In this document: positions 5,522 through 54,198 of the stretch, piece by piece
How positions within the stretch are numbered: the first letter of the stretch is position 1
Layout: the number at the start of each line of letters is the position of its first letter
Assembly: GCA_938014885.1 (NCBI GenBank)
Contig: CALLQI010000022.1
Location: forward strand, 121,679 to 185,678
Length of the DNA stretch: 64,000 nt
Source of the DNA: an uncultured bacterium
GTDB lineage: Bacteria > Planctomycetota > UBA8742 > UBA2392
Reading direction: 5' to 3'
Program-made: the position numbers and the translations under genes
The notes under the pieces: generated by a model
Database searches by the model: none
The model's input: only the letters and a program-made list of their open reading frames with translations
Told to the model about the DNA's origin: nothing

Positions 5522-7570
5522 CTACTTCCGCCGACGGCGCAGCATCGGCAGCAGCAGGCCCAGCAGCATGATTCCGCCGGCGCTGCTTCCGGCCACGCAA
5601 CCGCCGCCGCCTTCGCCGCCGCCGCTGTCGTCGTCGTTGCCCCCACCGCCGCTGCCGGCTACGTTGCCGCTGACGGTGAACGCGTAGGGCATCGCCGTGG
5701 GATCATCGCTGGCGATCACCACCTGGAATGACCACGCCGCCTGCGACTGCGGCACCACGCTGAAAGTGAAGTCGCTGGTCGCACCCTGCGCGATCTGTGT
5801 GGCCGGCGTCTGCGTCAGCACCACGTTGCAGTTGCTAAGCGCGTTGGCCTGCACCACCGGCGTGCCCGGCAGGTTCAGCGGCACCGGGCTGGTGTTGGTG
5901 ATGGTCCAGGTGTACGAAGCGCCGCTCATGGAGATCGACGGGACATCGTCGGTGCTGCCCTTGTCGATTACCACTGTGCCGCGCCGCACGAGCATGGCCG
6001 GGTCGGTGTAGTCGCGGGCCACGAACACGTCAAAGGCACCATTCAGGTCGTTGGCGACAATGTTGTGCGCCTTGCTGTCGAACAACATGACGCTGCCGTC
6101 GAGATTCAGCGCCACGTTCAGGCTTTCGTTGTTGGCGGCGATGTTGGGTGCGGCCGCACTGGCAAGCTGCATCGCGCCTGTTGCGCGGGTGTACTTGAAG
6201 GCGTCGGCCTTGGTGTTCCAGTCGGTCATCGGGCTGATCAGGTTGTTGGCCAGTGAGGTGAAGGCGATGACTTCACCGGCGGCGCTGATCACGGGCAGGT
6301 TGCATTCGCCGCTGCCGGCGGTGCCGGGCGTGCTGCCCATGTCGCTGACCAGTGTGATGGCCCCCGTGCTGCGTTCGATCAAGTACACGTCGTAGAAACC
6401 GTTGGCGTCGGTGGCCCCGGGCACCAGGTCGGTGTCAGGGATGATCGCGGCGATCCAGTTGCCGTCTTCGCTGATCACGCCGTCGGCTGAGCCAAACCCG
6501 GTCTGCAGCATCGCGCTGTTCGGCGTGGTGCTGCTGGGCGTCAGCAGCTGCATGCTTGAGCTGGCGCGACGGTACAGGAACAGGTCGTTCTTGGTGTTGG
6601 TGTCGGTGATGCCGGGGACAAGGTCCGTGGCGCGCGATGAAATCAATACGAACGCGCCGTCGGCGCTGATGCTCTTGACCCAGGTGTTGCCGTCGCTCGT
6701 GATGGCGCCCGCGCTGCTGCGGCTCATCAGGATCGTTTCACCGCTCGCGACCGAATACAGGAACGAGTCGTACAGGTTGTTGGCGTCCGCGATGCCGTCC
6801 ACCAGGTCGGTCGCGATTGAGTCGTAGGCCACCCACAGCCCGTTCTTGCTGATCACCGCGTTGCCCGAGTTGCCGTTGGCAGCATTGGCCGCGGCGCCGC
6901 TGGCATGGCTTACCAGCGTGTTGCCGGTGGTGACGCGGTTGTACAGGTACACGTCGCCGGCGCTGTTGGTGTCGGTCAGGTTGACCACAAGGTTCGTTGA
7001 GGAAGTGACGTACACGACGTAGCCGCCGTCGGCGCTGATCACCGGGTCAATGCTGCCGCCGTTGCCGGTAGTGACGTCCGAAGCGGCGACGTGGCTGACC
7101 AGTGAAATCGTGCCGCTGGCAACCTCATACAGGAAGATGTCTGAGGTGCTGGGGTAATCCACCTGCCCGGTGACGAGGTTGTTGGCAGTGCTCTGGAACA
7201 CCACCCACGCGCCGTCGGCGCTTATGTTCGCGCGGCTGCTGGTACCGGCCGCTGTGACGTAGGCACTGGCGGCTGAGCGCGAAATCAAGGTCGTGGTGCC
7301 GGTCTGGCGATCGTGCAGAAACACGTCGTTGGCGCCGTTGTTGTCGGTCACGAAGTTCACCAGCGTCGTGGCCGTGCTCTCGAACACCAGATAGCGGCCG
7401 TCATCGCTGACCTTCCGCGCGCCCTTCTGCGTCGTGGCCTGCAGCATGCTGGGGCCGTTGGCAGCCATGTCCTGCGCGTGGTGGCGCGTTGGCGAACTTA
7501 CCTGCAAGGCCTGCGCGGCCAGTGTGCAGGGAAACAGGATCAGGCAGGCGATCAGGGCGGGGCGGGGCAT
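5522..7570 (-). CDS. secreted repeat protein (about 11 PD40/TolB-like beta-propeller-type repeats) with MYXO-CTERM/PEP-CTERM-like C-terminal sorting signal
   Basis: Signal peptide MPRPALIACLILFPCTLAAQA (start taken at internal Met); recurring motif NLV..xTDxNxxxDVFLYxxxxGxxxLVS; C-terminus GGGGNDDDSGGGEGGGGCVAGSSAGGIMLLGLLLPMLRRRRK. Confidence 0.7.
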   Translation of the reverse strand: MPRPALIACLILFPCTLAAQALQVSSPTRHHAQDMAANGPSMLQATTQKGARKVSDDGRYLVFESTATTLVNFVTDNNGANDVFLHDRQTGTTTLISRSAASAYVTAAGTSSRANISADGAWVVFQSTANNLVTGQVDYPSTSDIFLYEVASGTISLVSHVAASDVTTGNGGSIDPVISADGGYVVYVTSSTNLVVNLTDTNSAGDVYLYNRVTTGNTLVSHASGAAANAANGNSGNAVISKNGLWVAYDSIATDLVDGIADANNLYDSFLYSVASGETILMSRSSAGAITSDGNTWVKSISADGAFVLISSRATDLVPGITDTNTKNDLFLYRRASSSMQLLTPSSTTPNSAMLQTGFGSADGVISEDGNWIAAIIPDTDLVPGATDANGFYDVYLIERSTGAITLVSDMGSTPGTAGSGECNLPVISAAGEVIAFTSLANNLISPMTDWNTKADAFKYTRATGAMQLASAAAPNIAANNESLNVALNLDGSVMLFDSKAHNIVANDLNGAFDVFVARDYTDPAMLVRRGTVVIDKGSTDDVPSISMSGASYTWTITNTSPVPLNLPGTPVVQANALSNCNVVLTQTPATQIAQGATSDFTFSVVPQSQAAWSFQVVIASDDPTAMPYAFTVSGNVAGSGGGGNDDDSGGGEGGGGCVAGSSAGGIMLLGLLLPMLRRRRK

Positions 7571-7725
7571 TGTGTCTCCTTTGGGTGGTGGTGCCGCGCT
7601 CATTGATACCGCGCACACCTGCCGGCGCGAAGCATCGCTGACAGGTAGCTATGCAACCCGGAGAGACAATTTTCGCTTATGCGTATACGCAACAGGCGGC
7701 AATCGGCGCTTATTGCGAAGTCGCG

Positions 7726-10700
7726 CTATGGGCGACGCTTGCGCGGGGCCACGCCACGCGGGCGCCGCTGCGAAGACTCTTTGCCCGGCAGCTTTGGTTT
7801 GGCGTGCGGGCCTGACACCGGCTTGCCCGGCGCGGCCTTGGCAAGGGCCGGGCTACTGAGTTTGCGGGGGGCAGGTGCGGGCACAGTCGCCGGTGCCGGC
7901 ACGGTCGCCGGGGCCGGGGGCGGCGCGGCCACGATCGACGGGGCACTGGGCGGGCGTTTGGGCACCATCACGCCCGTCGGCGCGGTGGGCTTTGCAACCG
8001 GCGTAAAACCCGTGCGCGGGAACGGTACTTTGGGGCGCGCGGGGTCTGAGGCCTTTTCCAGTTTCACGCGCTTGCGCCGGCCCGAACGCGGCAGGTTGGG
8101 CTCAAGCTCTTCCAGCAGGTCGTCGGCCTCATCTTCAAGTTTGCGGCTGAGGTCATTGCCCAGCTCATGCAGCGAGGCCTTGGCCATTTCGATGATCTTG
8201 CGGGCTTCGTCTTTCTGGCCGACTTCGATCAGTGCTTTCGCGAGGCCGAGTTCCGACTCGGCCATCGGTTCAAAGCCATTGGCGCGGCGACCGGCGCAGC
8301 CGGTGCGCAGCAGGTCGATCCCCTTCAGGATGTCGCGGCGGTTGCGGGCTTCGCGGCCTTTCTCGATCCACGCGTTGCCGAGATTGCCCTGCACAACACT
8401 GACCGTGCGCAAATCCTTCACTTCCAAGCTCAGCTTCAGGGCATTCTCCAGTGCTTCAATGGCCGGGCCCGCGCGCTTCAGCTGCAACAGCATCGCTGCC
8501 ACGTTGCTTTCGGATATGGCCTCGGTCTGCTTTGAGCCCAGGTCGCGCGACAGTTCGCGGGCGCGCATGGCCACGCGAAGGGCCTCTTCGTCGCGATCCT
8601 GTTCGTGGTAGATGCGGGTCAGCGTGTTCAGGTGCTGCGCTTCCAGGTTGGTTGCGCCGACTTCGCGGGCTACACGCATCGCGCGCAGCAGGCTGGCTTC
8701 ACTGACCTGCTTGTCGCCCAGAAGGTGCGCGTTCAGGCCGATGCAGGCAAGCGCCTGGCTTTCAATTTGGTGATCGGCGTCTTCTTGCGCCAGCTTCAGC
8801 GCCTGCTGGTGATGCTCAAGCGCCTCGGCGTGCCGCCCGCCGCGCTGCAGGAACCAGCCCATCGAGTAATGCGCCTGCGAAAGTGTCGCGATGTCGCCCG
8901 ACTCCCGCGCATACCGCAGCGCCAGCTGGAAGTGTTCCATCGCTTCGGCCTTGTCACCGCCGGTGGCGATGTACGTGCCCAAGCGGTCGTGGCCGCGCGA
9001 AAGCAGCGTCGGCGAAAGCCCCTTGATCGCAAGCGCCTGCAGGGCCCGTTCGCGCGCGCGCTCGACGTTGCCGCTTTTGCTGTACCCGTAGCTCATGATC
9101 AGCAGCTTGCGGTACAGCGCAATGCCGTCGCACTTAATGCCCTCCAGCATCTCCAGCACGGACTCGGTCGAGGTGAAGATGCGCAGGGTGCCGTCGATGA
9201 TGTGCACCCACACCCACTCTTCGCTGCCTTCTTGAATGCCCGCCAGCGAGCGTCGCACCAGCTCAAGCGCCAGGTCTTTCTCGCCCAGGCTGTTCTGCAC
9301 GGGCGCCGCGATGACGGCCGCCCAGGCGCGCCATTCGGGCCGGTGTGTACGCCGCGCCACCTGCAGCAGGCCCTGCATTTCAAGCCGTGTGCGCCTGCGG
9401 CCTTCCAGTGAGCCCTCACGGGTGTTCTTCCACCACCACTTGCGCACGTACTCGATCAGCGACTTTTCAAACAGCTGCTCGGTCGGTTCCATCGCGCCCA
9501 TCGATTGCAGCCTCGCCAGCGCGAACAGGCGCACGGACTCATACAGCCGGAAGCGCCGCTCGCCCTCCAGCTCTGTCAGCCGGTCAAACGTGATCAGATT
9601 GTGCCGCAGCAGCGCGCGCACCAGTTCTTCGGGGCTGGCACCGGGCAGCACCTTCAGCATCAGCTCAGCAACATCAAGCTGGAAGCCGTCGGGGAACACG
9701 GACAGCATCATCAGCGCCCGCTGCTCGGTGTCATCCAGCAGCTCGAAACTCCAAGCCAGCGTGCCTTCAAGCGTGTCGCGTGAGGCCGCGCCGTCACGCT
9801 TCAGCAGCTCAAAACGCTGGTCCAGCTTTTCCAGTATCTGGCGCGGCGACATCACGGCCACGCGGGCAGCCGCCAGCTCAATCGCCTGCGGGATGCCATC
9901 CAGACGCGCCACGATGGCGGCAATGTCGCGGACATTGCCGCCATCGACGCGGAACGACGGGTCGTTCTCCTGCGCGCGCTGCGTGAACAGCGCGACACTG
10001 GGCAGCGACATCAGCTCGGCACTGGGGCGCTTTTCGCCTTCGCGCGGGGTGTCCAGCGGCTTCAGCACCACGCTGGTTTCACCGGGAAACTCAAGCGCAA
10101 AGCGGCTGGTCAGCACCACCCGCAGCGTTTTCACCCGCGACAGCCACTCCTGCACGCAGCGGCTGACTGAGTCGGCACTGGCCTCACAGTTATCCAACAA
10201 CAGCAGCGTCGCCGAACCCGCACCCTCCAGCGCCGCCGCGATGCGCAGCCCAAGACTTGCGGTACCCTCACCCACGCGCAAAGCCTGCGCGGTCAGGTTG
10301 CATACGCTGGCCACGTCACGGGCGTTGGCGAGGTCCACATACACCATGCCGCCGGGGAAACGTTCCTGCACCTGCTCGGCAGCGGCCACGGCAACGCGAG
10401 TCTTGCCGGCGCCGGCGGGGCCCGAAACGGTGATCGCACGGGCCTGGTCCGACCGCAGCAGCGCCACCACCTGCTCCATGTCGCGGTCGCGACCCACCAA
10501 AGTCGTGTCGTAGCGCGGCAGGTTGTCTTTGGAGTCGCGGGTCTCTGCCACCAGCGGCTTAAACTTCGGCGGCGGCTGCAACACGTGCAGCGCCAACAGC
10601 GTTTCGTCGTCGGATTGCGTGGCCCCCGCGCGGAACCCGTCAACGTCCGCGCGGATGGCCTCAACCATGCCGTGCAGCGGCATGCCCTGCCTTGCGCCGA

Positions 10701-11343
10701 TCGTGCGGTACAGGCGTTCTTCGCCGTACATCTCTTTCTTGTGGTTGAAGGCTTCGGTGATGCCGTCGGTGTACAGCAGCAGTAAATCGCCGGGGGTCAG
10801 CTGGAAGAACTCTTCGCGCAGATGCTTTTTCAGCTCCGTCGATTGCAGCACGCCCAGCACCGGCGCGTTGCCGTGGGTCCACTTGTCGCGCAGCTTGCCG
10901 CCGCGCATCAGGATTGGCGGGTTGTGCCCCGCACTGGCAAAGCAGAAGCGCCGGTTGCGGATGTCCAACATGCCGTACAGCGCCGACAAGAACATCCCGC
11001 GCGGTAAGTCGGCCCGGATGCTGTCATTCACCTCAAGCAGCACCTGTTTGGGCGAAAGGCAGCCACGGCCACAGATCTGGAGTACTTTCTTGGCCGCCGC
11101 CATCAGCAATGCTGCCGCGGCGCCGTGCCCGCTGACGTCAGCCATCACGATGCCGAGTCGCCAGCTATCGACCATGATGAAGTCGTAGAAGTCGCCGCCC
11201 AAAAGGTCGCAGGGCCGGTACGAAGCCGCCAGCTCAAGGCCCGAAACGTTGGGCACTTCAGGAAGCATGGACAACTGCACCTTCCGGGCGCGTTCGAGCT
11301 CGGAGGCGCTGTTGCCCATCATCGCGGATCGTTCAAGTCCCAT
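7726..11343 (-). CDS. PP2C/SpoIIE-type phosphatase - STAND (NB-ARC-like) P-loop NTPase - TPR protein with basic Pro-rich C-terminal tail
   Basis: N-terminal PPM motifs GGDFYDF, ADVSGHG, YTDGITE, QSDDETL; Walker A GPAGAGKT and Walker B LLLLDNCE; 8 or more TPR-like helical repeats; tail PKRPPSAPSIVAAPPPAPATVPAPATVPAPAPRK...PRKRRP. Confidence 0.85.
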   Translation of the reverse strand: MGLERSAMMGNSASELERARKVQLSMLPEVPNVSGLELAASYRPCDLLGGDFYDFIMVDSWRLGIVMADVSGHGAAAALLMAAAKKVLQICGRGCLSPKQVLLEVNDSIRADLPRGMFLSALYGMLDIRNRRFCFASAGHNPPILMRGGKLRDKWTHGNAPVLGVLQSTELKKHLREEFFQLTPGDLLLLYTDGITEAFNHKKEMYGEERLYRTIGARQGMPLHGMVEAIRADVDGFRAGATQSDDETLLALHVLQPPPKFKPLVAETRDSKDNLPRYDTTLVGRDRDMEQVVALLRSDQARAITVSGPAGAGKTRVAVAAAEQVQERFPGGMVYVDLANARDVASVCNLTAQALRVGEGTASLGLRIAAALEGAGSATLLLLDNCEASADSVSRCVQEWLSRVKTLRVVLTSRFALEFPGETSVVLKPLDTPREGEKRPSAELMSLPSVALFTQRAQENDPSFRVDGGNVRDIAAIVARLDGIPQAIELAAARVAVMSPRQILEKLDQRFELLKRDGAASRDTLEGTLAWSFELLDDTEQRALMMLSVFPDGFQLDVAELMLKVLPGASPEELVRALLRHNLITFDRLTELEGERRFRLYESVRLFALARLQSMGAMEPTEQLFEKSLIEYVRKWWWKNTREGSLEGRRRTRLEMQGLLQVARRTHRPEWRAWAAVIAAPVQNSLGEKDLALELVRRSLAGIQEGSEEWVWVHIIDGTLRIFTSTESVLEMLEGIKCDGIALYRKLLIMSYGYSKSGNVERARERALQALAIKGLSPTLLSRGHDRLGTYIATGGDKAEAMEHFQLALRYARESGDIATLSQAHYSMGWFLQRGGRHAEALEHHQQALKLAQEDADHQIESQALACIGLNAHLLGDKQVSEASLLRAMRVAREVGATNLEAQHLNTLTRIYHEQDRDEEALRVAMRARELSRDLGSKQTEAISESNVAAMLLQLKRAGPAIEALENALKLSLEVKDLRTVSVVQGNLGNAWIEKGREARNRRDILKGIDLLRTGCAGRRANGFEPMAESELGLAKALIEVGQKDEARKIIEMAKASLHELGNDLSRKLEDEADDLLEELEPNLPRSGRRKRVKLEKASDPARPKVPFPRTGFTPVAKPTAPTGVMVPKRPPSAPSIVAAPPPAPATVPAPATVPAPAPRKLSSPALAKAAPGKPVSGPHAKPKLPGKESSQRRPRGVAPRKRRP

Positions 11344-11455
11344 GAGCCCTACAGTTTAGGAACTGTCAGAAACGATTGTCATCACCAATGCGTCATATTC
11401 CAGCACCTATCGATCAAGACTTCGCGTGGCCGTCGGCTACCGGTAGAATACCCCC
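11344..11455. promoter_or_regulatory. divergent intergenic region shared by the STAND-phosphatase gene (minus) and the AAA ATPase operon (plus)
   Basis: 112-bp gap between the two start codons; lower GC than flanks (tcagaaacgattgtcatcaccaatgcgtcatattccagcacctatcgatcaag). No promoter motif confirmed. Confidence 0.35.
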
Positions 11456-12952
11456 ATGGAACGCGCCGACCCGGTCTCCGAACTTGCGCTGCTGATCCGC
11501 ACCCGGCACCCGCTGATCACCATCGAAACCGTGGAAGAAGCCCGCGCGTTCGAGTTCGTGATGCGCGCCTGCCACCGCGTCAACCTGCACAAGTTCCGCT
11601 GGAGTGTCACGCGCGGCCTGCACCGCACCCGCCCCCAGTTTGCAGAGCCGGTGATGGAGACCGAAGAACCCCGCCGCGCGCTGGCACACCTGCTGCACGG
11701 CGACCTGCCCGGCATATACGTGTTCGCCGACCTGATGCCGCACCTGACCACTGCCGTGGACCAACGCCTGCTGCGCGAAGTCGTCGAACACGCGGAACGC
11801 AAAGGCCAGACCATTATCCTGATTGAGCAACGATTGAATCTGCCGCCGGCCCTTGAGCGTCTGGCTGTACCCTTCGACCTCGCGTTACCCGACGAAGCTG
11901 CCATACGCGACCTGGCGTCGCGCACCTTCAAGGAAATCGGCGAGATCGCTCATGTGAAGGTCGAAATCAAGCGCTCGGAACTGGACGACCTGCTGCGCAA
12001 CCTGCGCGGCCTGACCACCAATGAAGTACGGCGCGCGATCTGGCGCGCCGCACTGGATGATGGCCGCATCGACGCCGCCGACGTAAAGGGCGTGCTGCAG
12101 CTCAAGCAAGAGAAGCTGCGCGAAGGCGGCATGCTGGAGTACATCGAGCCCGGCATCAAGCTCGACGACATCGGCGGGCTGAACCGGCTGAAAGAGTGGC
12201 TGCGCCTGCGTGAGCGCGCACTGACGCCCGAAGCCCGCGAGTTCGGCCTGGCCCCGCCGCGCGGCATTCTGCTGCTGGGTGTGCAGGGCGCGGGCAAAAG
12301 CATGTGCGCCCGCGCCGTGGCCGCGGCCTGGAACCTGCCGCTGCTGCGCATGGACCCGGGTGCCCTGTACGACAAGTACGTCGGCGAGTCCGAGAAGCAG
12401 CTTCGGCGCGCATTGCGCACCGCCGAGGCCATGGCGCCGCTGGTGCTGTGGATCGACGAGATTGAGAAGGGATTCGCCAGTGCGGCCTCGCAAAGCACCG
12501 ACGGCGGGCTTTCGCAGCGCATGTTCGGGACGCTGCTTTCCTGGATGCAGGACAACCGCGCGCCGATTTTTCTGGTGGCCACAGCCAATGACATCTCCGC
12601 GCTGCCGCCTGAGTTGATGCGCAAGGGCCGCTTTGACGAAATCTTTTTCGTGGACCTTCCTGACGCGCCCGCCCGCGAGCAGATACTCGCGGTGCACCTA
12701 GAGCGCCGCAAACGCGACCCCAAGAACTTTGATCTCAAGGCGCTTGCTGCCGCATCCGACGGTTTCAGCGGCGCTGAGCTGGAACAGGCCATTGTCAGCG
12801 CCCTGTACGCAGCGTTTGCGGCCGGCACGGAACTCAGCACGCAAGGCTTGCTGGATGAGCTCGGCCGCACACGCGCGATCAGCGTTACCATGGCAGAGCG
12901 CATCACCGAGTTGCGCGACTGGGCCGCCGACCGCTGCGTGCCCGCCAACTGA
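11456..12952 (+). CDS. AAA+ family ATPase (classic clade) with about 230-aa N-terminal domain of unknown function
   Basis: Walker A LLLGVQGAGKS, Walker B VLWIDEIE, second region of homology with Arg fingers ATANDISALPPELMRKGRFDE, sensor-2 SGAELEQA. Confidence 0.85.
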   Translation: MERADPVSELALLIRTRHPLITIETVEEARAFEFVMRACHRVNLHKFRWSVTRGLHRTRPQFAEPVMETEEPRRALAHLLHGDLPGIYVFADLMPHLTTAVDQRLLREVVEHAERKGQTIILIEQRLNLPPALERLAVPFDLALPDEAAIRDLASRTFKEIGEIAHVKVEIKRSELDDLLRNLRGLTTNEVRRAIWRAALDDGRIDAADVKGVLQLKQEKLREGGMLEYIEPGIKLDDIGGLNRLKEWLRLRERALTPEAREFGLAPPRGILLLGVQGAGKSMCARAVAAAWNLPLLRMDPGALYDKYVGESEKQLRRALRTAEAMAPLVLWIDEIEKGFASAASQSTDGGLSQRMFGTLLSWMQDNRAPIFLVATANDISALPPELMRKGRFDEIFFVDLPDAPAREQILAVHLERRKRDPKNFDLKALAAASDGFSGAELEQAIVSALYAAFAAGTELSTQGLLDELGRTRAISVTMAERITELRDWAADRCVPAN

Positions 12953-13013
12953 TGACCGATTGCCCGGCCTTAGCTAAGCTGCCCGGGAACACCACTCCAG
13001 CCACAGGAGCCCC

Positions 13014-13388
13014 ATGTCGTCCACCCAGCTTGACCAGTTTGCCGCCGCCGCGCTGCAAGGCCTGCTTACCCGCGGTGGCTTCACAGACTACGACGAACTT
13101 GCGCGTGAGGCCTTCCAGATCGCCCGGGCGATGATGGCTGAGCGCCTGCGCCAGTCGGAATTGCCGGATAGTGAAGGCGAGGCCGGAGACCTGATGGAAG
13201 CCGCGATTGACTCGCTGGAGCTGCCGCTGCGCGTGATCAAGAAGCTGCGTGCGCTGGGTGTGAGCACTGTGCGCGACCTGACGCTGACTACGGAGAAAGC
13301 GATCCGCGCCACCGGCCTGAAGGACGAGAGCATGGACGAAATCCGCCAGGCGCTGCACCGGCTGGGGCTCAACATCGCCAGCTCGTAG
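13014..13388 (+). CDS. free-standing RNA polymerase alpha-subunit C-terminal-domain (alphaCTD)-like protein
   Basis: C-terminal 55 aa IDSLELPLRVIKKLRALGVSTVRDLTLTTEKAIRATGLKDESMDEIRQALHRLGL matches the alphaCTD helix-hairpin-helix consensus (compare E. coli RpoA LELSVRSANCLK..GIHTVGDLV..LLKTPNLGKKSLTEIK). Confidence 0.6.
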   Translation: MSSTQLDQFAAAALQGLLTRGGFTDYDELAREAFQIARAMMAERLRQSELPDSEGEAGDLMEAAIDSLELPLRVIKKLRALGVSTVRDLTLTTEKAIRATGLKDESMDEIRQALHRLGLNIASS

Positions 13389-13433
13389 GCCACGCGGTCT
13401 GGCACGGTGCACTGGCCTTGCTAAACCCTCCGC

Positions 13434-14333
13434 ATGGCGATGCGCATTGTGGTGGCCGGGGCAACGGGCAGCGTGGGACGGGCGGTGATTCGCCTCGCCC
13501 GCGCGCGTGGCCTGCACACCGTCGCGATTGGCCGCGATGCCGCACGCCTGCAAACTGCCGGTGCCGACGAAGCGCGCGAAGTCAGCTTCCAGCAACCCGA
13601 ATCCCTGCGCGCCGTGATGCTTCCCGGCGATGTCGTCTTTTCATCCCTTGGGGCCAGCGCTTCGCCCAGCCCCTTCATGGGGCGCAAACGCTATCGCGAC
13701 GTGGACGTGCCGCTGAACATGGCGCTTCTTGAATCCGCGAAGCAGGCCAGCGCGGCCCGCTTCTTGTACGTGTCGTTGGCCTTTGGCCGCGATTTGCGCC
13801 AGTACGCCTTTGCCGACGCCCACGAACAGGTCGTTGATGCCGTGGTCGCCTCCGGGCTGCGCTATACGATCCTGAGGCCGACCGGCATATTCAGCACGTT
13901 CCGCCGCCTGTGGGGCTTTGCCAAGCTGGGCGTATTCCCTATCCCCGGCAACCCGGATTGCCGCAGCAACCCGATCCATGAAGACGACATCGCGTCCAAC
14001 GCGCTGGATTCATTGGCCCGGGGCGATGAGCAACTCGAGATCGGCGGGCCGGAAGTCTTCACCCGCCGCGAAATCGGCCTGCAGATGTGCCAGGCAGCCG
14101 GCTGGAAGCACGGAAGCACGCTGCGCATCCCGAAGTGGGTGCACCTTGGCAGCGCGCATCTGCTGGCGATCATCAGCCCGCGCGTGCTGGACATGCTGCG
14201 TTTTTACTGGGCGATCTCGGTCTTCGACAACATCGCGCCCGTGGCCGGGCAGCGTCGGCTGGCCGACTACTACACCGAGGCAGCGCGCCACAAGCCGGGC
14301 GTGCTGGGCGGCCTGCATCGTTCAGGCTGGTAG
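13434..14333 (+). CDS. NAD(P)H-binding NmrA-like / atypical SDR family protein
   Basis: N-terminal Rossmann motif MRIVVAGATGSVGRAV; size and overall pattern typical of NmrA/HSCARG-like reductases. Confidence 0.7.
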   Translation: MAMRIVVAGATGSVGRAVIRLARARGLHTVAIGRDAARLQTAGADEAREVSFQQPESLRAVMLPGDVVFSSLGASASPSPFMGRKRYRDVDVPLNMALLESAKQASAARFLYVSLAFGRDLRQYAFADAHEQVVDAVVASGLRYTILRPTGIFSTFRRLWGFAKLGVFPIPGNPDCRSNPIHEDDIASNALDSLARGDEQLEIGGPEVFTRREIGLQMCQAAGWKHGSTLRIPKWVHLGSAHLLAIISPRVLDMLRFYWAISVFDNIAPVAGQRRLADYYTEAARHKPGVLGGLHRSGW

Positions 14334-14343
14334 CTGTCGTTGG

Positions 14344-17300
14344 CTATCCGATGCGCGGCGGGCGGCGACGCTTGCGCGGCACCTTTCCGGTGGGGCTTGC
14401 GCCCTTGCGCTTCACGGGCAGCGGGGCCCTTGCCGGGGTCGGGGCCTGCGCCGGACTTGATTCCACCATCGAATCCAGCAGTTTTCGCGCGCGTTCGGCC
14501 AGTGACGTGCCGTACTGGTCGCCGCGATGTGCAGCCGCATCCAGTGCCTGCTGCGCGAAGGTCTTGGCCTCTTGCTTCTTGCCCGACTCAAGCAGCAGCT
14601 CCGCCAGTGAAACTTCGCCGTTGATCAGCGGGTCGAAACCCAGCCGCCTGCGCTCGGTACAGGCGCGCTGCAGCGCGTCGGTCGCGGCCAGCAGATCTTT
14701 CTTGTCGCGATCGGCACGCCAGCGAATCGCGTGGACTTCACCGATGTTGCTCAGCACACCCAGCGCCGTACGCAGGTCCTTCAACTCAAGCAATGTCTGG
14801 TAGGCCTGCTTTAGTGATTCCAGTGCTGAGCTGCTGTCGCCCAGCTCGACCTTGATTGCCGCGATGTTGCTCTCGGCCACGGCCTCAACAACGCGGTCGC
14901 CGAATTCGCGGGCGACGTCGCGGGCCTGCACACACGAATTCAGGGCTTCCTGCACGCGTCCTTGTTCGAAGTACACGTTGGCCGCGCCATTCAGGCACTT
15001 GGCCAGCGTGCCCGGGCTGCCGGCCTCGCGCGCGATGCGGATGCTGCGCTGGATTGCGGCTTCAGCCTGGTGGCGCTCGCCGATCAGGTTGCTTGCACCC
15101 GCGAGTCCGGCCAGTGCCTGCGCTTCCTGCACCCGCATGCCGCGGTCCTGTGCGATGCGGATCGCGTCGGTGAAGTGCGGCAGCGCGCCGGAAGGATCGC
15201 CGGTGCGCTGGTGCCACTGCCCGAACTGGATCAGCAGCCGCACGTGCAGCTCGCGATACTTCTTGTCGATGCAGACCTTCAGCGCTGACTCAAGACAGGC
15301 GTGCGCCTCGCGGTGGCGGCCGATGCGCTCATACAGGGTGCTCATGTACGAATTCACCCGCGCGCCGTTAATCGCGCCCAGCAGGCCCGAGTTCATTGCC
15401 GCGGTGAAGCAGCGCGCCGAGTCCGACATGCGCCCAAGCTGCATCAGCGCGCGGCCGCGCAGAATGTTGGCGTGGCACAGCGCGAGGCCATCGCCTTTGA
15501 ACTCGGACAGCAGCCGCTCGGTCTCTTCGGGCGATGAGGCCAGCTTCAGCTCGGCCTCGGTAACTTTCAGCCAGTGCCACTCTTCGCAGCCGGGCAGCAG
15601 GCCGTCGTGGGCCTTGAGCACCATTTCCGTGGCGCGCTGGGTTTCGCCCTGCGTTTGCAACGCGGGGGCCAGCATCACGGTGGCGGTGGCGCGGGCCTCA
15701 GGCAGGCTGGTCGAGCGCGAGATTTCTTCCAGGCCCGCGGCTTCCATGCGCAGGCGCTCTTCGGCCTGCACGTGGCCTTCTCGCTTGTCGGTGCTCCACC
15801 AGCGCAGTGCGTAGCCAAGCAGCGCGGCCTCTTGCCGCCGCCGCGTGGCGTCAAGCTGGCCGGCGGCCTTCAGTTTCTCGAGCATGAACAGCCGGAAGGT
15901 CTCAAACAGCGCGTAACGCGGCTCGTTCTCAAGTTCATGGATCGCGTCGGTGTACAAAAGGCTATGGCGCGAAAGGCGCTGCAGCAGCTCGGGCGGTTTG
16001 GCCGGTGCCAGGGCTTTCAACAGTTCGGCGGCGACATCGGGGCCGAACCCGTCGGGGCAGCAGGCAAGCATGCCGGCGGCCGCGCGTTCCGTTTCATCGA
16101 GCAGCTCGTAACTCCAGGCCAAGGCGCCGCGCAGGGTTCCCTTCTCGCCTTCGGCCCGCAGCAGGTCCAAACGCTCATCCAGACGGTCAATGATCTGGCG
16201 CGGGCTCAGCAGGCCGGCGCGCACGGCGGCAAGTTCAATGGCGTGCGGGATGCCATCGAGGCGCTGGCAGATTTCGACCACCTCGCGATAGTTGCTGTCG
16301 GTGATGGCAAAGCCCGGGTCTTCCCGACGCGCGAACTCCGCGAACAGCATCACGGCGGGCAGCGCACGTGCTTCCTCAAGTGAGAAACGAATCTTGCGGG
16401 TGCCGGAAAGCTGCATCAGGGGCTTCACCGCGATGCTGCTTTCACCGGGCAAATCCAGTTGCGCGCGGCTGGTGGCAATCACGCAAACACCGGGGGCGCG
16501 CTGGCGCCACTCTTCGACGCAGCGGGCAACGGCCTTCGTGCAGCCCTCACAGTTGTCGAGCAACAGCAGGATCGGCCCGGGCGCGTTGCCCAGCGCCACG
16601 CCTACGCGATAGCCAAGGCTGGCATCTTCCTGGCCCAGGTGCAGCACGTTGGCCACGCGCCGGCAGATGTCGGCGACGGTCTTGGCCGCTTGCAACTCGA
16701 CGTAGCACACGCCGCCCTTGAAGTGATCGCGCGCGCGCGCGGCCACGTGAATCGCCAGCCGCGTTTTGCCTACGCCGGCGGGGCCGGTCAGCGTGACCAC
16801 CGTACCGGGCTTGCCGGTCAGCAGGGCCAGCAGCGCTTCTACGTCGCGTTCGCGGCCGATCAGCGGGGTGCGGTATTCGGGCAGCCATGTCGGCGCCACG
16901 GTCACGGGCGGGGTCAGTGCGGTTTCGGGCGCACCCTCGACGCGGATGGCGACAAGCGTTTCGTCGTCGGTCAGCGGGGTGCCCGCGCGCAGCGCGTCGG
17001 TAGTGCGGGCCAGCCGTGTCAACAGTTCAGCGGCTTTGCCTGACTGGCGCATGGTCTCATGCAGTTTCTCGCGACCAAGCGTGTTGCCATTCCGATCTGC
17101 CGCCAGCAGCAGGCCGTCAGTGTACAGCAACAGCATGTCGCCCGGTTCAAGTTGCAGCGAATGCTCAGCCAGCTTGCCCTCAAGAATCCGCGATGGAAAC
17201 AGGCCCAGTGCCGGGCCGGCCGCACCGGGCGCGACGTCGGCCACTCCCCGCCGCAGCAGGCTTGGCAGGTGGTGCCCGGCGCTGACCCAGGTGATGCGGT

Positions 17301-17742
17301 GGGTCTGCGTGTCCAGAATGGCGTACAAGATGGTGACGAACATTTCGCGCGGCAGGTCCGCGCGGATCGCCTCGTTCACTTCCGACAGCGCCTTCAGCGG
17401 CGACAGGCAGCCCCGCGCGCAGATCTGCAGTGCCTTCTTGGTTGAGGCCATCATCAGGGCTGCCGCCGCGCCCTGGCCTGAAACGTCGGCCACGGCGATC
17501 CCGAGGTGACGCTCGTCGATGCGGATGAAGTCGTAGAAGTCGCCGCCCAGGCGTTCGCTGGTGCGGTACTCGGCCGCGAACTCAAGTCCTTTGGCGTGGG
17601 GCAGGTCGGGCAGCATGGTGCGCTGCACATCGCGCGCGCGCTCGATGCTGCGTGTGTGGTGCCCCTTGCCGTCGCGACTGTCTGCCATGCACGCTCGGTT
17701 TGCCCAGGGACTTCGATTGGATAAGGCCGCGAAGCCTAGCAC
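14344..17742 (-). CDS. PP2C/SpoIIE phosphatase - STAND NTPase - TPR protein, paralog of 7726..11343
   Basis: GGDFYDF, ADVSGQG (His to Gln), YTDGLL, TDDETL; Walker A GPAGVGKT, Walker B ILLLLDNCE; TPR array; tail PVKRKGASPTGKVPRKRRRPPRIG. About 60% identity to the other copy across the phosphatase domain by eye. Confidence 0.85.
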   Translation of the reverse strand: MLGFAALSNRSPWANRACMADSRDGKGHHTRSIERARDVQRTMLPDLPHAKGLEFAAEYRTSERLGGDFYDFIRIDERHLGIAVADVSGQGAAAALMMASTKKALQICARGCLSPLKALSEVNEAIRADLPREMFVTILYAILDTQTHRITWVSAGHHLPSLLRRGVADVAPGAAGPALGLFPSRILEGKLAEHSLQLEPGDMLLLYTDGLLLAADRNGNTLGREKLHETMRQSGKAAELLTRLARTTDALRAGTPLTDDETLVAIRVEGAPETALTPPVTVAPTWLPEYRTPLIGRERDVEALLALLTGKPGTVVTLTGPAGVGKTRLAIHVAARARDHFKGGVCYVELQAAKTVADICRRVANVLHLGQEDASLGYRVGVALGNAPGPILLLLDNCEGCTKAVARCVEEWRQRAPGVCVIATSRAQLDLPGESSIAVKPLMQLSGTRKIRFSLEEARALPAVMLFAEFARREDPGFAITDSNYREVVEICQRLDGIPHAIELAAVRAGLLSPRQIIDRLDERLDLLRAEGEKGTLRGALAWSYELLDETERAAAGMLACCPDGFGPDVAAELLKALAPAKPPELLQRLSRHSLLYTDAIHELENEPRYALFETFRLFMLEKLKAAGQLDATRRRQEAALLGYALRWWSTDKREGHVQAEERLRMEAAGLEEISRSTSLPEARATATVMLAPALQTQGETQRATEMVLKAHDGLLPGCEEWHWLKVTEAELKLASSPEETERLLSEFKGDGLALCHANILRGRALMQLGRMSDSARCFTAAMNSGLLGAINGARVNSYMSTLYERIGRHREAHACLESALKVCIDKKYRELHVRLLIQFGQWHQRTGDPSGALPHFTDAIRIAQDRGMRVQEAQALAGLAGASNLIGERHQAEAAIQRSIRIAREAGSPGTLAKCLNGAANVYFEQGRVQEALNSCVQARDVAREFGDRVVEAVAESNIAAIKVELGDSSSALESLKQAYQTLLELKDLRTALGVLSNIGEVHAIRWRADRDKKDLLAATDALQRACTERRRLGFDPLINGEVSLAELLLESGKKQEAKTFAQQALDAAAHRGDQYGTSLAERARKLLDSMVESSPAQAPTPARAPLPVKRKGASPTGKVPRKRRRPPRIG

Positions 17743-54121: not shown

Positions 54122-54198
<77 letters not shown>

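What the first reader, a model, noticed from the sequence alone, without database searches (positions are those of the whole stretch)
11344..14333. Divergently transcribed AAA+ ATPase / free alpha-CTD / NmrA-like operon between the two STAND phosphatases
The AAA+ gene starts 112 bp from the start of STAND phosphatase 1 on the opposite strand, so they share a regulatory region. The operon ends 10 bp from the stop of STAND phosphatase 2. The AAA+ protein has a canonical C-terminal AAA module (Walker A/B, SRH arginines) but an unrecognised 230-aa N-domain. The tight embedding suggests functional coupling, for example an unfoldase or remodeller acting on or with the STAND proteins.
Basis: inference. 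Interest (0 to 1): 0.65.

Follow-up and report, generated by a model that had tools for sequence, protein, structure and literature searches.

The report
Ycf46-type AAA gene beside sensor phosphatases

Summary
Observation confirmed. The genes are STAND1 (7726-11343, -), AAA+ (11456-12952, +), free alpha-CTD (13014-13388, +), NmrA-like SDR (13434-14333, +) and STAND2 (14344-17742, -). The gaps are 112, 61, 45 and 10 bp.

Interpretation mostly not supported. The AAA+ protein is a full-length member of the Ycf46 family (41% identity end to end to a UniRef-named cyanobacterial ycf46). Thousands of ~500-aa homologues occur across many phyla.

The five-gene arrangement appears only in two near-identical relatives (88% and 99% AAA identity). 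It is absent in 84 other AAA loci, including the closest outgroups at 62-68%.

Family-level relatives keep the surrounding synteny (T2SSE, TrkA, flotillin, kinase-WD40). There the STAND phosphatases are tandem, single or absent, alpha-CTD and NmrA lie elsewhere, and no AAA gene is present.

The one recurrent link is different. In three or more relatives the alpha-CTD gene sits directly downstream of a third STAND-phosphatase paralogue.

Verdict: ordinary genes brought together by a recent local rearrangement. Interest is low to moderate.

The parts
7726..11343 (-). STAND phosphatase 1 (1205 aa): N-terminal SpoIIE/PP2C, STAND NTPase (Walker A GPAGAGKT), TPR array and a Pro/Ala/Lys-rich tail. 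It belongs to the orthologue group of the TrkA-adjacent STAND phosphatase of related genomes.
   Evidence: It is 43-50% identical to P0204/P0209/P0215/P0216.
11344..11455 (.). 112-bp divergent intergenic region. The STAND1-proximal half is conserved in the 88% relative; the AAA-proximal half is not.
11353..11382 (-). Sigma-70-like promoter match for STAND1 (ATGACA-18-TAAACT). Both hexamers are conserved in L001, and the -10 element ends about 9 nt before the ATG. It overlaps the inverted repeat ACAGTTtaggAACTGT (11351-11366).
   Evidence: This is a consensus match only; function is inferred.
11444..11449 (+). -10-like TAGAAT, 6 nt upstream of the AAA start codon, with no Shine-Dalgarno sequence. 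The transcript may be leaderless.
   Evidence: Read from the sequence. Inference only.
11456..12151 (+). AAA protein residues 1-232: a degenerate AAA+ module (alpha/beta core plus helical lid). The P-loop is replaced by the conserved T25-V-E-E28, and Walker B is reduced to D92-L.
12152..12952 (+). AAA protein residues 233-498: an active classic-clade AAA domain (Walker A 275-282, pore loop KYVG 307-310, Walker B D334/E335, sensor-1 N378, Arg fingers R389/R392), followed by the lid (GFSGAE) and a conserved C-terminal helix.
13014..13388 (+). Free-standing alpha-CTD-like protein (124 aa): a conserved helical N-terminus (MSSTQLD...), an invariant ELPDS linker, and a helix-hairpin-helix alpha-CTD at residues 59-121. 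An AGGAG ribosome-binding site lies upstream.
13434..14333 (+). NmrA-like atypical SDR (299 aa, GATGSVG Rossmann motif). Its orthologue (79% identical) follows a TetR gene in related genomes.
14344..17742 (-). STAND phosphatase 2 (1132-aa ORF; the likely start is the ATG at codon 19). It is a paralogue of STAND1 (39% identity), more divergent than STAND1 from the orthologues in other genomes, and lies next to TrkA.

Best explanation
The 3-kb segment holds three functionally unrelated genes on the same strand.

(1) A Ycf46-family AAA+ ATPase. It is a tandem AAA protein: the N-terminal module has lost nucleotide binding (pseudo-D1), and the C-terminal classic-clade module keeps every catalytic and pore-loop motif. 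It most likely forms a hexamer with two stacked rings and threads or remodels protein substrates. The ring assembly and threading are inferred from the fold and motifs.

(2) A small alpha-CTD-like helix-hairpin-helix protein.

(3) An NmrA-like NAD(P)-binding atypical SDR.

These genes came to lie between two paralogous PP2C-STAND-TPR sensor phosphatases through a recent local rearrangement. It happened in one genus-level Planctomycetota lineage, inside a chromosomal block that is otherwise syntenic. The AAA gene is a newcomer to this block, and its proximity to the STAND genes is incidental. The three genes may still be co-transcribed. The back-to-back promoters in the 112-bp spacer are ordinary.
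For: Shown:
- Full-length homology of the AAA protein to a huge ~500-aa family. There are at least 8000 hits and at least 588 genome loci over Planctomycetota, Acidobacteriota, Myxococcota, Gemmatimonadota, Actinomycetes, Proteobacteria and Cyanobacteria.
- 41% identity over residues 1-497 to a protein that UniRef names ycf46.
- The N-domain profile finds 5288 cluster representatives. It is always N-terminal, and complete proteins are about 495-515 aa.
- The N-domain has an AAA+ fold.
- No recurrent neighbour turns up over 85 AAA loci.
- The AAA-aCTD-NmrA arrangement next to STAND1 occurs only in L001 and L083. L083 also shows STAND2; the L001 contig ends after NmrA.
- The five closest outgroups at 62-68% identity have four different neighbourhoods.
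- Synteny map: relatives keep the order T2SSE...alpha-CTD...TrkA-STAND...flotillin-kinase/WD40 but never contain the AAA. In L084 the two STAND genes are directly tandem. In L086, L087 and L118 alpha-CTD and NmrA are separated by methyltransferase and TetR genes.
- GC content is uniform across the region.

Inferred:
- Hexamer formation and substrate threading.
- The direction of the rearrangement.
Against: - The arrangement is stable within the lineage. Three assemblies keep the AAA-aCTD-NmrA block next to STAND1; only the window and L083 also show STAND2.
- Two of 84 distant AAA loci have a GAF-SpoIIE phosphatase directly adjacent to the AAA gene (L006, L053). Only three SpoIIE genes occur in all 1.33 Mb of flanks. 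That is slightly more than chance would suggest.
- No transcript or interaction data exist.
- I could not find the empty ancestral AAA site in this genome. The window lacks the CarboxypepD_reg/AhpC neighbours. The AAA here could therefore be an extra paralogue recruited to the locus rather than a relocated single copy.
Confidence: 0.7

Rival explanations
1. The AAA+ is a dedicated unfoldase or remodeller that assembles, disassembles or resets the oligomeric STAND phosphatases, and it is co-regulated with STAND1 from the shared 112-bp region.
For: - Divergent arrangement with a 112-bp spacer, and a convergent 10-bp junction.
- The arrangement is retained in L001 and L083.
- An intact pore loop and catalytic motifs.
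- Two independent cases of GAF-SpoIIE phosphatases adjacent to Ycf46-like genes.
Against: - No conservation beyond 88% identity.
- STAND-phosphatase orthologues in five related genomes, and 26 PP2C metagenome loci, have no AAA neighbour.
- The family occurs in thousands of genomes that lack PP2C-STAND proteins, an architecture limited to this clade.
- The N-domain is family-wide, not specialised.
- In the comparison with L001, only the STAND1-proximal half of the spacer is conserved.
Confidence: 0.1
2. The meaningful unit is alpha-CTD plus STAND phosphatase. The small alpha-CTD-like protein would be a partner or output of the PP2C-STAND sensors, for example a phospho-regulated factor that engages RNA polymerase or its activators. 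The AAA and NmrA genes would be passengers. This can hold together with the best explanation.
For: - In L116, L117 and L119 the alpha-CTD gene lies directly downstream, on the same strand, of a third STAND-phosphatase paralogue of about 1143 aa. The spacing is a 2-bp gap, a 1-bp overlap and a 70-bp gap respectively.
- In the window lineage alpha-CTD sits between two STAND genes.
- The alpha-CTD family is strongly conserved at 59-72% identity (100% only for the window's own entry, P0121), with an invariant ELPDS linker and an invariant MSSTQLD N-terminus. The canonical DNA-contacting Lys (E. coli K298) is an invariant Glu, which points to protein rather than UP-element binding.
- A Ser/Thr kinase-WD40 gene lies in the same syntenic block.
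Against: - All cases come from one clade with conserved synteny, so there may be as few as two independent juxtaposition events.
- In L084, L086, L087 and L118 alpha-CTD is not adjacent to any STAND gene.
- No biochemical evidence exists. The phospho-regulation idea is speculation.
Confidence: 0.3
3. The cluster is an anti-phage defence island, made of IetA-like AAA and Avs-like STAND proteins.
For: - The AAA domain matches IetA models (PADLOC E 1.5e-23; NCBIfam IteA 84.9 bits).
- STAND-TPR proteins resemble Avs sensors in general architecture.
Against: - The IteA score is far below the cutoff (84.9 against 510), and the match covers only the generic AAA domain (residues 260-489).
- There is no IetS protease.
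- The STAND proteins match only generic TPR models in PADLOC.
- The locus is a conserved chromosomal synteny block with uniform GC, and I saw no mobile-element genes among the annotated neighbours.
- Ycf46 is a housekeeping-type family.
Confidence: 0.02

Closest known systems
Ycf46 (cyanobacterial and plastid 'uncharacterized AAA domain-containing protein ycf46'; Synpcc7942_0417)
   Same: - End-to-end homology: 41% identity over 497 residues to a UniRef-named ycf46.
- Same length of about 500 aa.
- Same N-domain plus C-terminal classic AAA domain.
- Same invariant motifs.
   Different: - The host is a non-photosynthetic Planctomycetota MAG.
- The cyanobacterial gene lies in its own three-gene stress operon. 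It has been linked to KaiC interaction, circadian timing and carbon concentration (bioRxiv 10.1101/2025.07.21.665879). None of those partners is evident here.
- The biochemical function of the family is unknown.
Type II (tandem D1-D2) classic-clade AAA ATPases with an inactive ring: NVL/Rix7, 55LCC (AFG2/SPATA5), PEX1/PEX6, VAT/p97, Msm0858
   Same: - The active module has a KYVG pore loop and two SRH arginines.
   Different: - D1 here has no P-loop at all; it is more degenerate than PEX6 D1.
- There is no additional N-terminal substrate- or adaptor-binding domain.
- N-domain sequence identity to the PDB matches is only 6-16%.
- Oligomeric state is untested.
IetA (IetAS anti-phage system ATPase)
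   Same: The AAA domain is similar (PADLOC PDLC02196, E 1.5e-23).
   Different: - The score is below the NCBIfam cutoff (84.9 against 510).
- There is no IetS partner.
- The N-terminal region is different.
Bacterial signal-transduction STAND proteins (MalT/AfsR type) and SpoIIE/RsbU-type PP2C phosphatases
   Same: - The flanking proteins combine an intact PP2C (motifs GGDFYD, DVSGHG, DG, DDxT) with a STAND NTPase and a TPR sensor.
- The STAND-TPR part is homologous to that of adenylate-cyclase, kinase, SARP and LuxR STAND proteins.
   Different: - In the hit list, PP2C as the N-terminal effector of a STAND protein appears only in this Planctomycetota clade. There are about 65 clusters and several paralogues per genome.
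- No STAS or anti-sigma partner genes are seen in the annotated neighbourhood.
RNA polymerase alpha-subunit C-terminal domain (PF03118)
   Same: - Helix-hairpin-helix domain above the Pfam cutoff.
- The 29 best PDB hits are RpoA alpha-CTDs.
- The equivalent of E. coli R265 is invariant.
   Different: - Free-standing 124-aa protein with its own conserved N-terminal helices.
- The equivalents of G296 and K298 are Lys/Gly and an invariant Glu, so canonical UP-element binding is unlikely.

Membership tests
Classic-clade AAA ATPase (PF00004) | Walker A, Walker B, sensor-1 Asn, two SRH arginine fingers, aromatic-hydrophobic-Gly pore loop, and a lid with the G(F/Y)SGA(D/E) motif | tested here: met
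   PF00004 E 3.8e-30 and AAA_lid_3. PDB hits to Cdc48, VAT and p97 at E about 1e-61. All motif residues are invariant in 36 homologues.
Ycf46 family | Protein of about 500 aa with the family-specific N-domain followed by one classic AAA domain, and full-length homology to named ycf46 proteins | tested here: met
   41% identity over residues 1-497 to UniRef 'ycf46' P0184, E 7e-139. The N-domain profile hits 5288 representatives, always at the N-terminus. No match above the curated cutoff to any NCBIfam or Pfam family-level model was found, so membership rests on alignment.
Ycf46 family | Functional features reported for cyanobacterial Ycf46 (KaiC interaction, stress-operon regulation) | not testable with these tools
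   Known only from the literature. No Kai genes were looked for outside the window.
Tandem (type II) AAA ATPase | Two consecutive AAA+ modules (alpha/beta core plus lid) in one chain | tested here: met
   [not shown]
Tandem (type II) AAA ATPase | Nucleotide binding in D1 | tested here: not met
   There is no Gly-rich P-loop and no Lys. The loop after beta-1 is T25-V-E-E28, with T25 and E28 invariant. D1 is a pseudo-ATPase module.
IetA (IetAS defence) | Score above the NCBIfam equivalog cutoff, plus an adjacent IetS protease | tested here: not met
   84.9 bits against a cutoff of 510. No protease neighbour.
Conserved gene neighbourhood / functional operon with STAND phosphatases | The arrangement recurs in phylogenetically distant genomes | tested here: not met
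   Present only in L001 (88%) and L083 (99%). Absent in L002, L088, L089, L120 and 80 genome loci. Also absent on the STAND side.
Operon (co-transcription of AAA, alpha-CTD and NmrA) | Same strand, short gaps, no internal terminator, a single transcript | tested here: inconclusive
   The gaps are 61 and 45 bp, and no terminator-like site lies between the genes. However, the 99% relative has a 229-bp alpha-CTD-NmrA spacer. No transcript data are available.
RNA polymerase alpha-CTD domain (PF03118) | Pfam score above the gathering cutoff | tested here: met
   30.2 bits against a cutoff of 23.8. The 29 best PDB hits are RpoA.
RNA polymerase alpha-CTD domain (PF03118) | UP-element DNA-binding determinant (E. 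coli R265, N268, G296, K298, S299) | tested here: not met
   The R265 and S299 equivalents are kept. N268 becomes Lys, G296 becomes Lys or Gly, and K298 becomes an invariant Glu. Numbering is by hand alignment to E. coli, from my own knowledge.
NmrA-like / atypical SDR | Rossmann GxxGxxG motif, with Pfam NmrA or NAD_binding_10 above cutoff | tested here: met
   GATGSVG motif. NAD_binding_10 scores 68.5 bits against 27.2, and NmrA 36.9 against 27.
STAND NTPase (flanking genes) | NB-ARC/NACHT-type NTPase followed by a helical/winged-helix region and a repeat sensor | tested here: inconclusive
   AAA_22 is above cutoff. NB-ARC (21.5 against 23.5) and AAA_16 (31.2 against 32.6) are just below it. 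Homologues carry HTH_77, NB-ARC and TPR_MalT, and share the module with AfsR/SARP and cyclase STAND proteins. No structure was modelled.

The most novel reading that the evidence does not exclude
In this Planctomycetota clade the PP2C-STAND-TPR sensors and the free alpha-CTD-like protein form a previously undescribed signalling route to transcription: a STAND sensor controls a phosphatase, which controls an alpha-CTD decoy or adaptor acting on RNA polymerase. In the window's lineage a Ycf46 tandem-AAA remodeller has been recruited to this module, echoing the two GAF-SpoIIE/Ycf46 adjacencies seen in distant phyla.
Probability: 0.1. Interest if true: 0.65.

Novelty: new member of a known kind. 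Interest (0 to 1): 0.25.

Why it matters
As proposed, an AAA unfoldase dedicated to STAND phosphatases would be a new regulatory principle for STAND signalling. The evidence does not support it.

Three smaller points remain useful:
- Ycf46, a conserved and still unexplained AAA protein of cyanobacteria and plastids, has full-length homologues across many non-photosynthetic phyla. By predicted structure it is a tandem AAA with a dead first module. This narrows hypotheses about its mechanism and argues against a photosynthesis-specific role.
- PP2C-effector STAND proteins form an expanded, clade-restricted family.
- These STAND proteins recur next to a free alpha-CTD-like protein. That pairing is a concrete, testable lead for a new sensor-to-transcription link.

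Tried and rejected
- PADLOC scan: only generic AAA/IetA and TPR hits, so the defence reading was rejected.
- Clustering of neighbours across 85 AAA loci: no recurrent partner. The largest cluster, in 9 loci, was a generic response-regulator/GGDEF-like protein.
- Metagenome scan with STAND1: returned only PP2C-domain relatives (31-43% identity over the first ~250 residues; only L093 has several PP2C matches across ~3.6 kb). None has an AAA, alpha-CTD or NmrA neighbour. Of little use.
- Search of the window for the ancestral AAA-locus neighbours (Na_Ca_ex, CarboxypepD_reg, AhpC): none found, so relocation cannot be told apart from duplication.
- Rfam on the whole window: only one tRNA, at 54125-54198.
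- Terminator scan: nothing between the three genes.
- Literature searches for 'RNA_pol_A_CTD' and for SpoIIE+STAND+Planctomycetes: nothing relevant.
- hhalign of the N half against the C half of the AAA family: in register but not significant on its own (probability 12%).
Full report
**1. The observation**

The ORF map and translations give five genes, exactly as described:

| Gene | Coordinates | Strand | Length |
|---|---|---|---|
| STAND1 | 7726-11343 | - | 1205 aa |
| AAA protein | 11456-12952 | + | 498 aa |
| alpha-CTD protein | 13014-13388 | + | 124 aa |
| NmrA-like protein | 13434-14333 | + | 299 aa |
| STAND2 | 14344-17742 | - | 1132-aa ORF |

The spacers are 112 bp (divergent), 61 bp, 45 bp and 10 bp (convergent).

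Pfam confirms every domain call:
- SpoIIE/PP2C plus AAA_16/AAA_22/NB-ARC-like NTPase plus TPR in both flanking proteins.
- PF00004 at residues 271-400 plus AAA_lid_3 in the AAA protein, with no hit in residues 1-230.
- RNA_pol_A_CTD above cutoff in the 124-aa protein.
- NAD_binding_10 and NmrA in the 299-aa protein.

Walker A (275-282), the pore loop KYVG (307-310), Walker B D334/E335, sensor-1 N378 and the SRH arginines R389/R392 are all present. All are invariant among 36 homologues.

**2. What the AAA protein is**

The listed hits are mostly about 495-500 aa and cover 89-100% of the query at 50-98% identity.

A genome scan found at least 588 loci. The 80 that were kept span Planctomycetota, Myxococcota, Acidobacteriota, Gemmatimonadota, Actinomycetes, Proteobacteria, Nitrospirota, Verrucomicrobiota and Cyanobacteria. 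They are 41-56% identical (best tblastn segment), nearly all over almost the full length.

UniRef names the cyanobacterial member in L082 'Uncharacterized AAA domain-containing protein ycf46'. It aligns with the window protein over residues 1-497 at 41% identity, E 7e-139. The protein is therefore a member of the Ycf46 family.

The literature held here describes cyanobacterial Ycf46 as a KaiC-interacting AAA ATPase. It lies in a stress-induced three-gene operon and affects circadian timing and carbon concentration. Its mechanism is unknown (10.1101/2025.07.21.665879).

**3. The N-domain**

- AlphaFold2 models are confident: full-length pLDDT 87.3 and N-domain alone 84.6.
- A profile-profile comparison of the N half with the C half of the family is weak (E 0.0026, probability 12%). 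It is in register, though: TIILIEQ..LPPALER aligns with PIFLVATAND..LPPELMRKGR, and RGLTxxE with GFSGAE.
- The position of the P-loop is occupied by T25-V-E-E28, with no glycine-rich loop and no lysine.

The N-domain is thus a degenerate, nucleotide-free AAA+ module, and the protein is a pseudo-D1/active-D2 tandem AAA.

A profile of the N-domain finds 5288 cluster representatives (2427 at E <= 1e-10). The domain is always at the N-terminus, and complete proteins are about 495-515 aa. It is a family hallmark, not a lineage-specific adaptor for STAND proteins.

**4. Is the arrangement conserved?**

*From the AAA side.*
- L001 (AAA 88% identical) keeps STAND1-AAA-aCTD-NmrA up to the contig end.
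- L083 (99%) keeps all five genes.
- Every more distant relative differs:

| Relative | AAA identity | Neighbourhood |
|---|---|---|
| P0003 | 68% | SulP/STAS-AAA-HAD hydrolase |
| P0005 | 65% | Na_Ca_ex-CarboxypepD_reg-AAA-AhpC/TSA |
| P0008 | 63% | Na_Ca_ex-CarboxypepD_reg-AAA-AhpC/TSA |
| P0011 | 62-63% | HisKA-AAA-MutS |

- In the 80 genome loci, tblastn finds no alpha-CTD, no STAND NTPase module and only two weak NmrA-like hits within 10 kb.
- Clustering of all neighbours shows no recurrent partner.

*From the other side.* The relatives identified through the alpha-CTD protein and STAND1 share a clear synteny block with the window. Shared genes include T2SSE at 83% identity, flotillin at 78%, TrkA at 69-77% and kinase-WD40 at 81%. 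Within that block:
- L086 and L087 have no STAND gene. The order there is aCTD-methyltransferase-TetR-NmrA.
- L118 has the same order plus one TrkA-adjacent STAND gene.
- L084 has two STAND phosphatases directly in tandem next to TrkA, with alpha-CTD 5.6 kb away.
- L116 and L117 have a TrkA-adjacent STAND gene and a second STAND gene next to alpha-CTD.
- None contains a Ycf46-type gene.

STAND1 belongs to the orthologue group of the TrkA-adjacent gene (43-50% identity). STAND2 is a more divergent paralogue at 38-42%.

The simplest reading is a local rearrangement in the window's lineage. It placed alpha-CTD and NmrA, in inverted orientation, together with an incoming AAA gene, between two STAND paralogues. 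Relocation and duplication of the AAA gene cannot be told apart, because the window lacks the alternative locus.

**5. Operon and shared regulatory region**

Co-transcription of the three genes is plausible but untested.
- The genes share a strand and the gaps are short.
- An AGGAG ribosome-binding site precedes alpha-CTD.
- No terminator-like site lies between the genes.
- However, the 99%-identical relative has a 229-bp alpha-CTD-NmrA spacer where the window has 45 bp. That junction is therefore not constrained.

In the 112-bp spacer a sigma-70-like promoter match for STAND1 (11382-11353, minus strand) is conserved in L001. The AAA-proximal half of the spacer is not conserved. A TAGAAT 6 nt upstream of the AAA ATG, with no Shine-Dalgarno sequence, suggests a leaderless transcript; this is inference. 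Back-to-back promoters are ordinary and do not by themselves imply co-regulation.

**6. What does recur**

In L116, L117 and L119 the alpha-CTD gene lies immediately downstream, on the same strand, of a third STAND-phosphatase paralogue group of about 1143 aa. That group is 56-87% identical within itself and about 30% identical to STAND1 and STAND2. The spacing is a 2-bp gap, a 1-bp overlap and a 70-bp gap.

The alpha-CTD family is tightly conserved at 59-72% identity. It has an invariant N-terminal MSSTQLD, an invariant ELPDS linker and an invariant equivalent of E. coli R265. The equivalent of the DNA-contacting K298 is an invariant Glu. This points to protein-protein interaction rather than UP-element binding, which is inference.

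All these genomes belong to one clade with conserved synteny. The number of independent juxtaposition events may therefore be as low as two, and I rate this link as suggestive only.

Separately, two of 84 distant AAA loci have a GAF-SpoIIE phosphatase directly adjacent to the AAA gene, while only three SpoIIE genes occur in 1.33 Mb of flanks. This is a weak hint. It keeps a small probability on a Ycf46-PP2C connection.

**7. The flanking proteins**

The PP2C motifs are intact. The STAND-TPR part is homologous to that of adenylate-cyclase, kinase, SARP/AfsR and LuxR STAND proteins. Full-length PP2C-STAND-TPR proteins appear only in this Planctomycetota clade, as about 65 clusters with several paralogues per genome. 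With that many copies, proximity of any one gene to a STAND gene is less remarkable.

**8. Rejected readings**

A defence island (IetA-like AAA plus Avs-like STAND proteins) is rejected.
- The IteA score is 84.9 bits against a cutoff of 510, and the match covers only the generic AAA domain.
- There is no IetS protease.
- PADLOC finds only generic TPR matches in the STAND proteins.
- The locus is a conserved chromosomal block with uniform GC.

**9. Verdict**

The interpretation of functional coupling between the AAA+ protein and the STAND phosphatases is not supported by comparative evidence.

The AAA protein is a new member of the known but mechanistically unexplained Ycf46 family. The structural reading of its N-domain as a dead AAA module is a useful by-product. 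The alpha-CTD/STAND-phosphatase pairing is the lead worth following. Interest is 0.25.

Noticed in passing
L116 3299-7104; L117 1-3664; L119 1575-5451 (related loci). Window 13014-13388 for the alpha-CTD gene.: In three related genomes the free alpha-CTD gene lies immediately downstream of, and partly overlapping, a third paralogue group of PP2C-STAND-TPR genes (~1143 aa). Matching contig lengths suggest two more cases. The 64-kb window has no member of that group.
   Followed up: partly
L083 9347-9575 compared with window 13389-13433: A 99%-identical relative has a 229-bp spacer between alpha-CTD and the NmrA-like gene where the window has 45 bp. That is an indel of about 184 bp of unrelated GC-rich sequence. 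I did not identify what it is.
   Followed up: no
window 11351-11382: The STAND1-proximal half of the divergent spacer is conserved in the 88% relative. It holds a sigma-70-like promoter match and the inverted repeat ACAGTTtaggAACTGT (one arm is lost in L001), plus a TGTCA...TGTCA direct repeat. This could be an operator.
   Followed up: partly
window 11444-11458: TAGAAT lies 6 nt before the AAA ATG, with no Shine-Dalgarno sequence. STAND1's predicted -10 element ends about 9 nt before its ATG. Both genes may be expressed as leaderless or near-leaderless mRNAs.
   Followed up: no
L006 8085-9845 and L053 11698-14481: GAF-SpoIIE (586 aa) and PDZ-GAF-SpoIIE (927 aa) phosphatase genes lie directly next to Ycf46-like AAA genes in a Planctomycetota MAG and a Thermoanaerobaculia MAG. 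Only three SpoIIE genes occur in 1.33 Mb of AAA-gene flanks, and two of them are adjacent to the AAA gene.
   Followed up: partly
window 7726-8100 and 14344-14480 (C-terminal tails of STAND1 and STAND2): Both STAND phosphatases end in low-complexity Pro/Ala/Lys/Arg-rich tails. In STAND1 the tail includes the repeat APATVPAPATVPAPAP and ends in KRRP; in STAND2 it ends in KRRRPPRIG. The basic tails have no known function.
   Followed up: no
window 572-25064: A synteny block is conserved across the clade: Ser/Thr kinase-WD40, a 181-aa protein, Band_7, flotillin, then TrkA, a 243-aa protein, a T2SSE ATPase, a 368-aa protein, DUF502 and a cold-shock protein. The PD40/Tricorn_N-like gene (5522-7618, -) is, like the AAA gene, found only in the window lineage.
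   Followed up: partly
window 13014-13388 (alignment A4): The alpha-CTD family has an invariant N-terminus MSSTQLD and an invariant ELPDS motif in the acidic linker. The Ser/Thr residues sit near a kinase and phosphatases in the same block, so they are possible phosphosites. This is speculation.
   Followed up: no
L086/L087 11604-13111; L118 5468-6975: In related genomes the orthologue of the NmrA-like gene (79% identical) is immediately preceded by a TetR-family regulator gene. In the window lineage no TetR gene lies next to it, which suggests its regulation has changed.
   Followed up: no
window 54125-54198 (-): A single tRNA gene is the only Rfam match in the 64-kb window.
   Followed up: no
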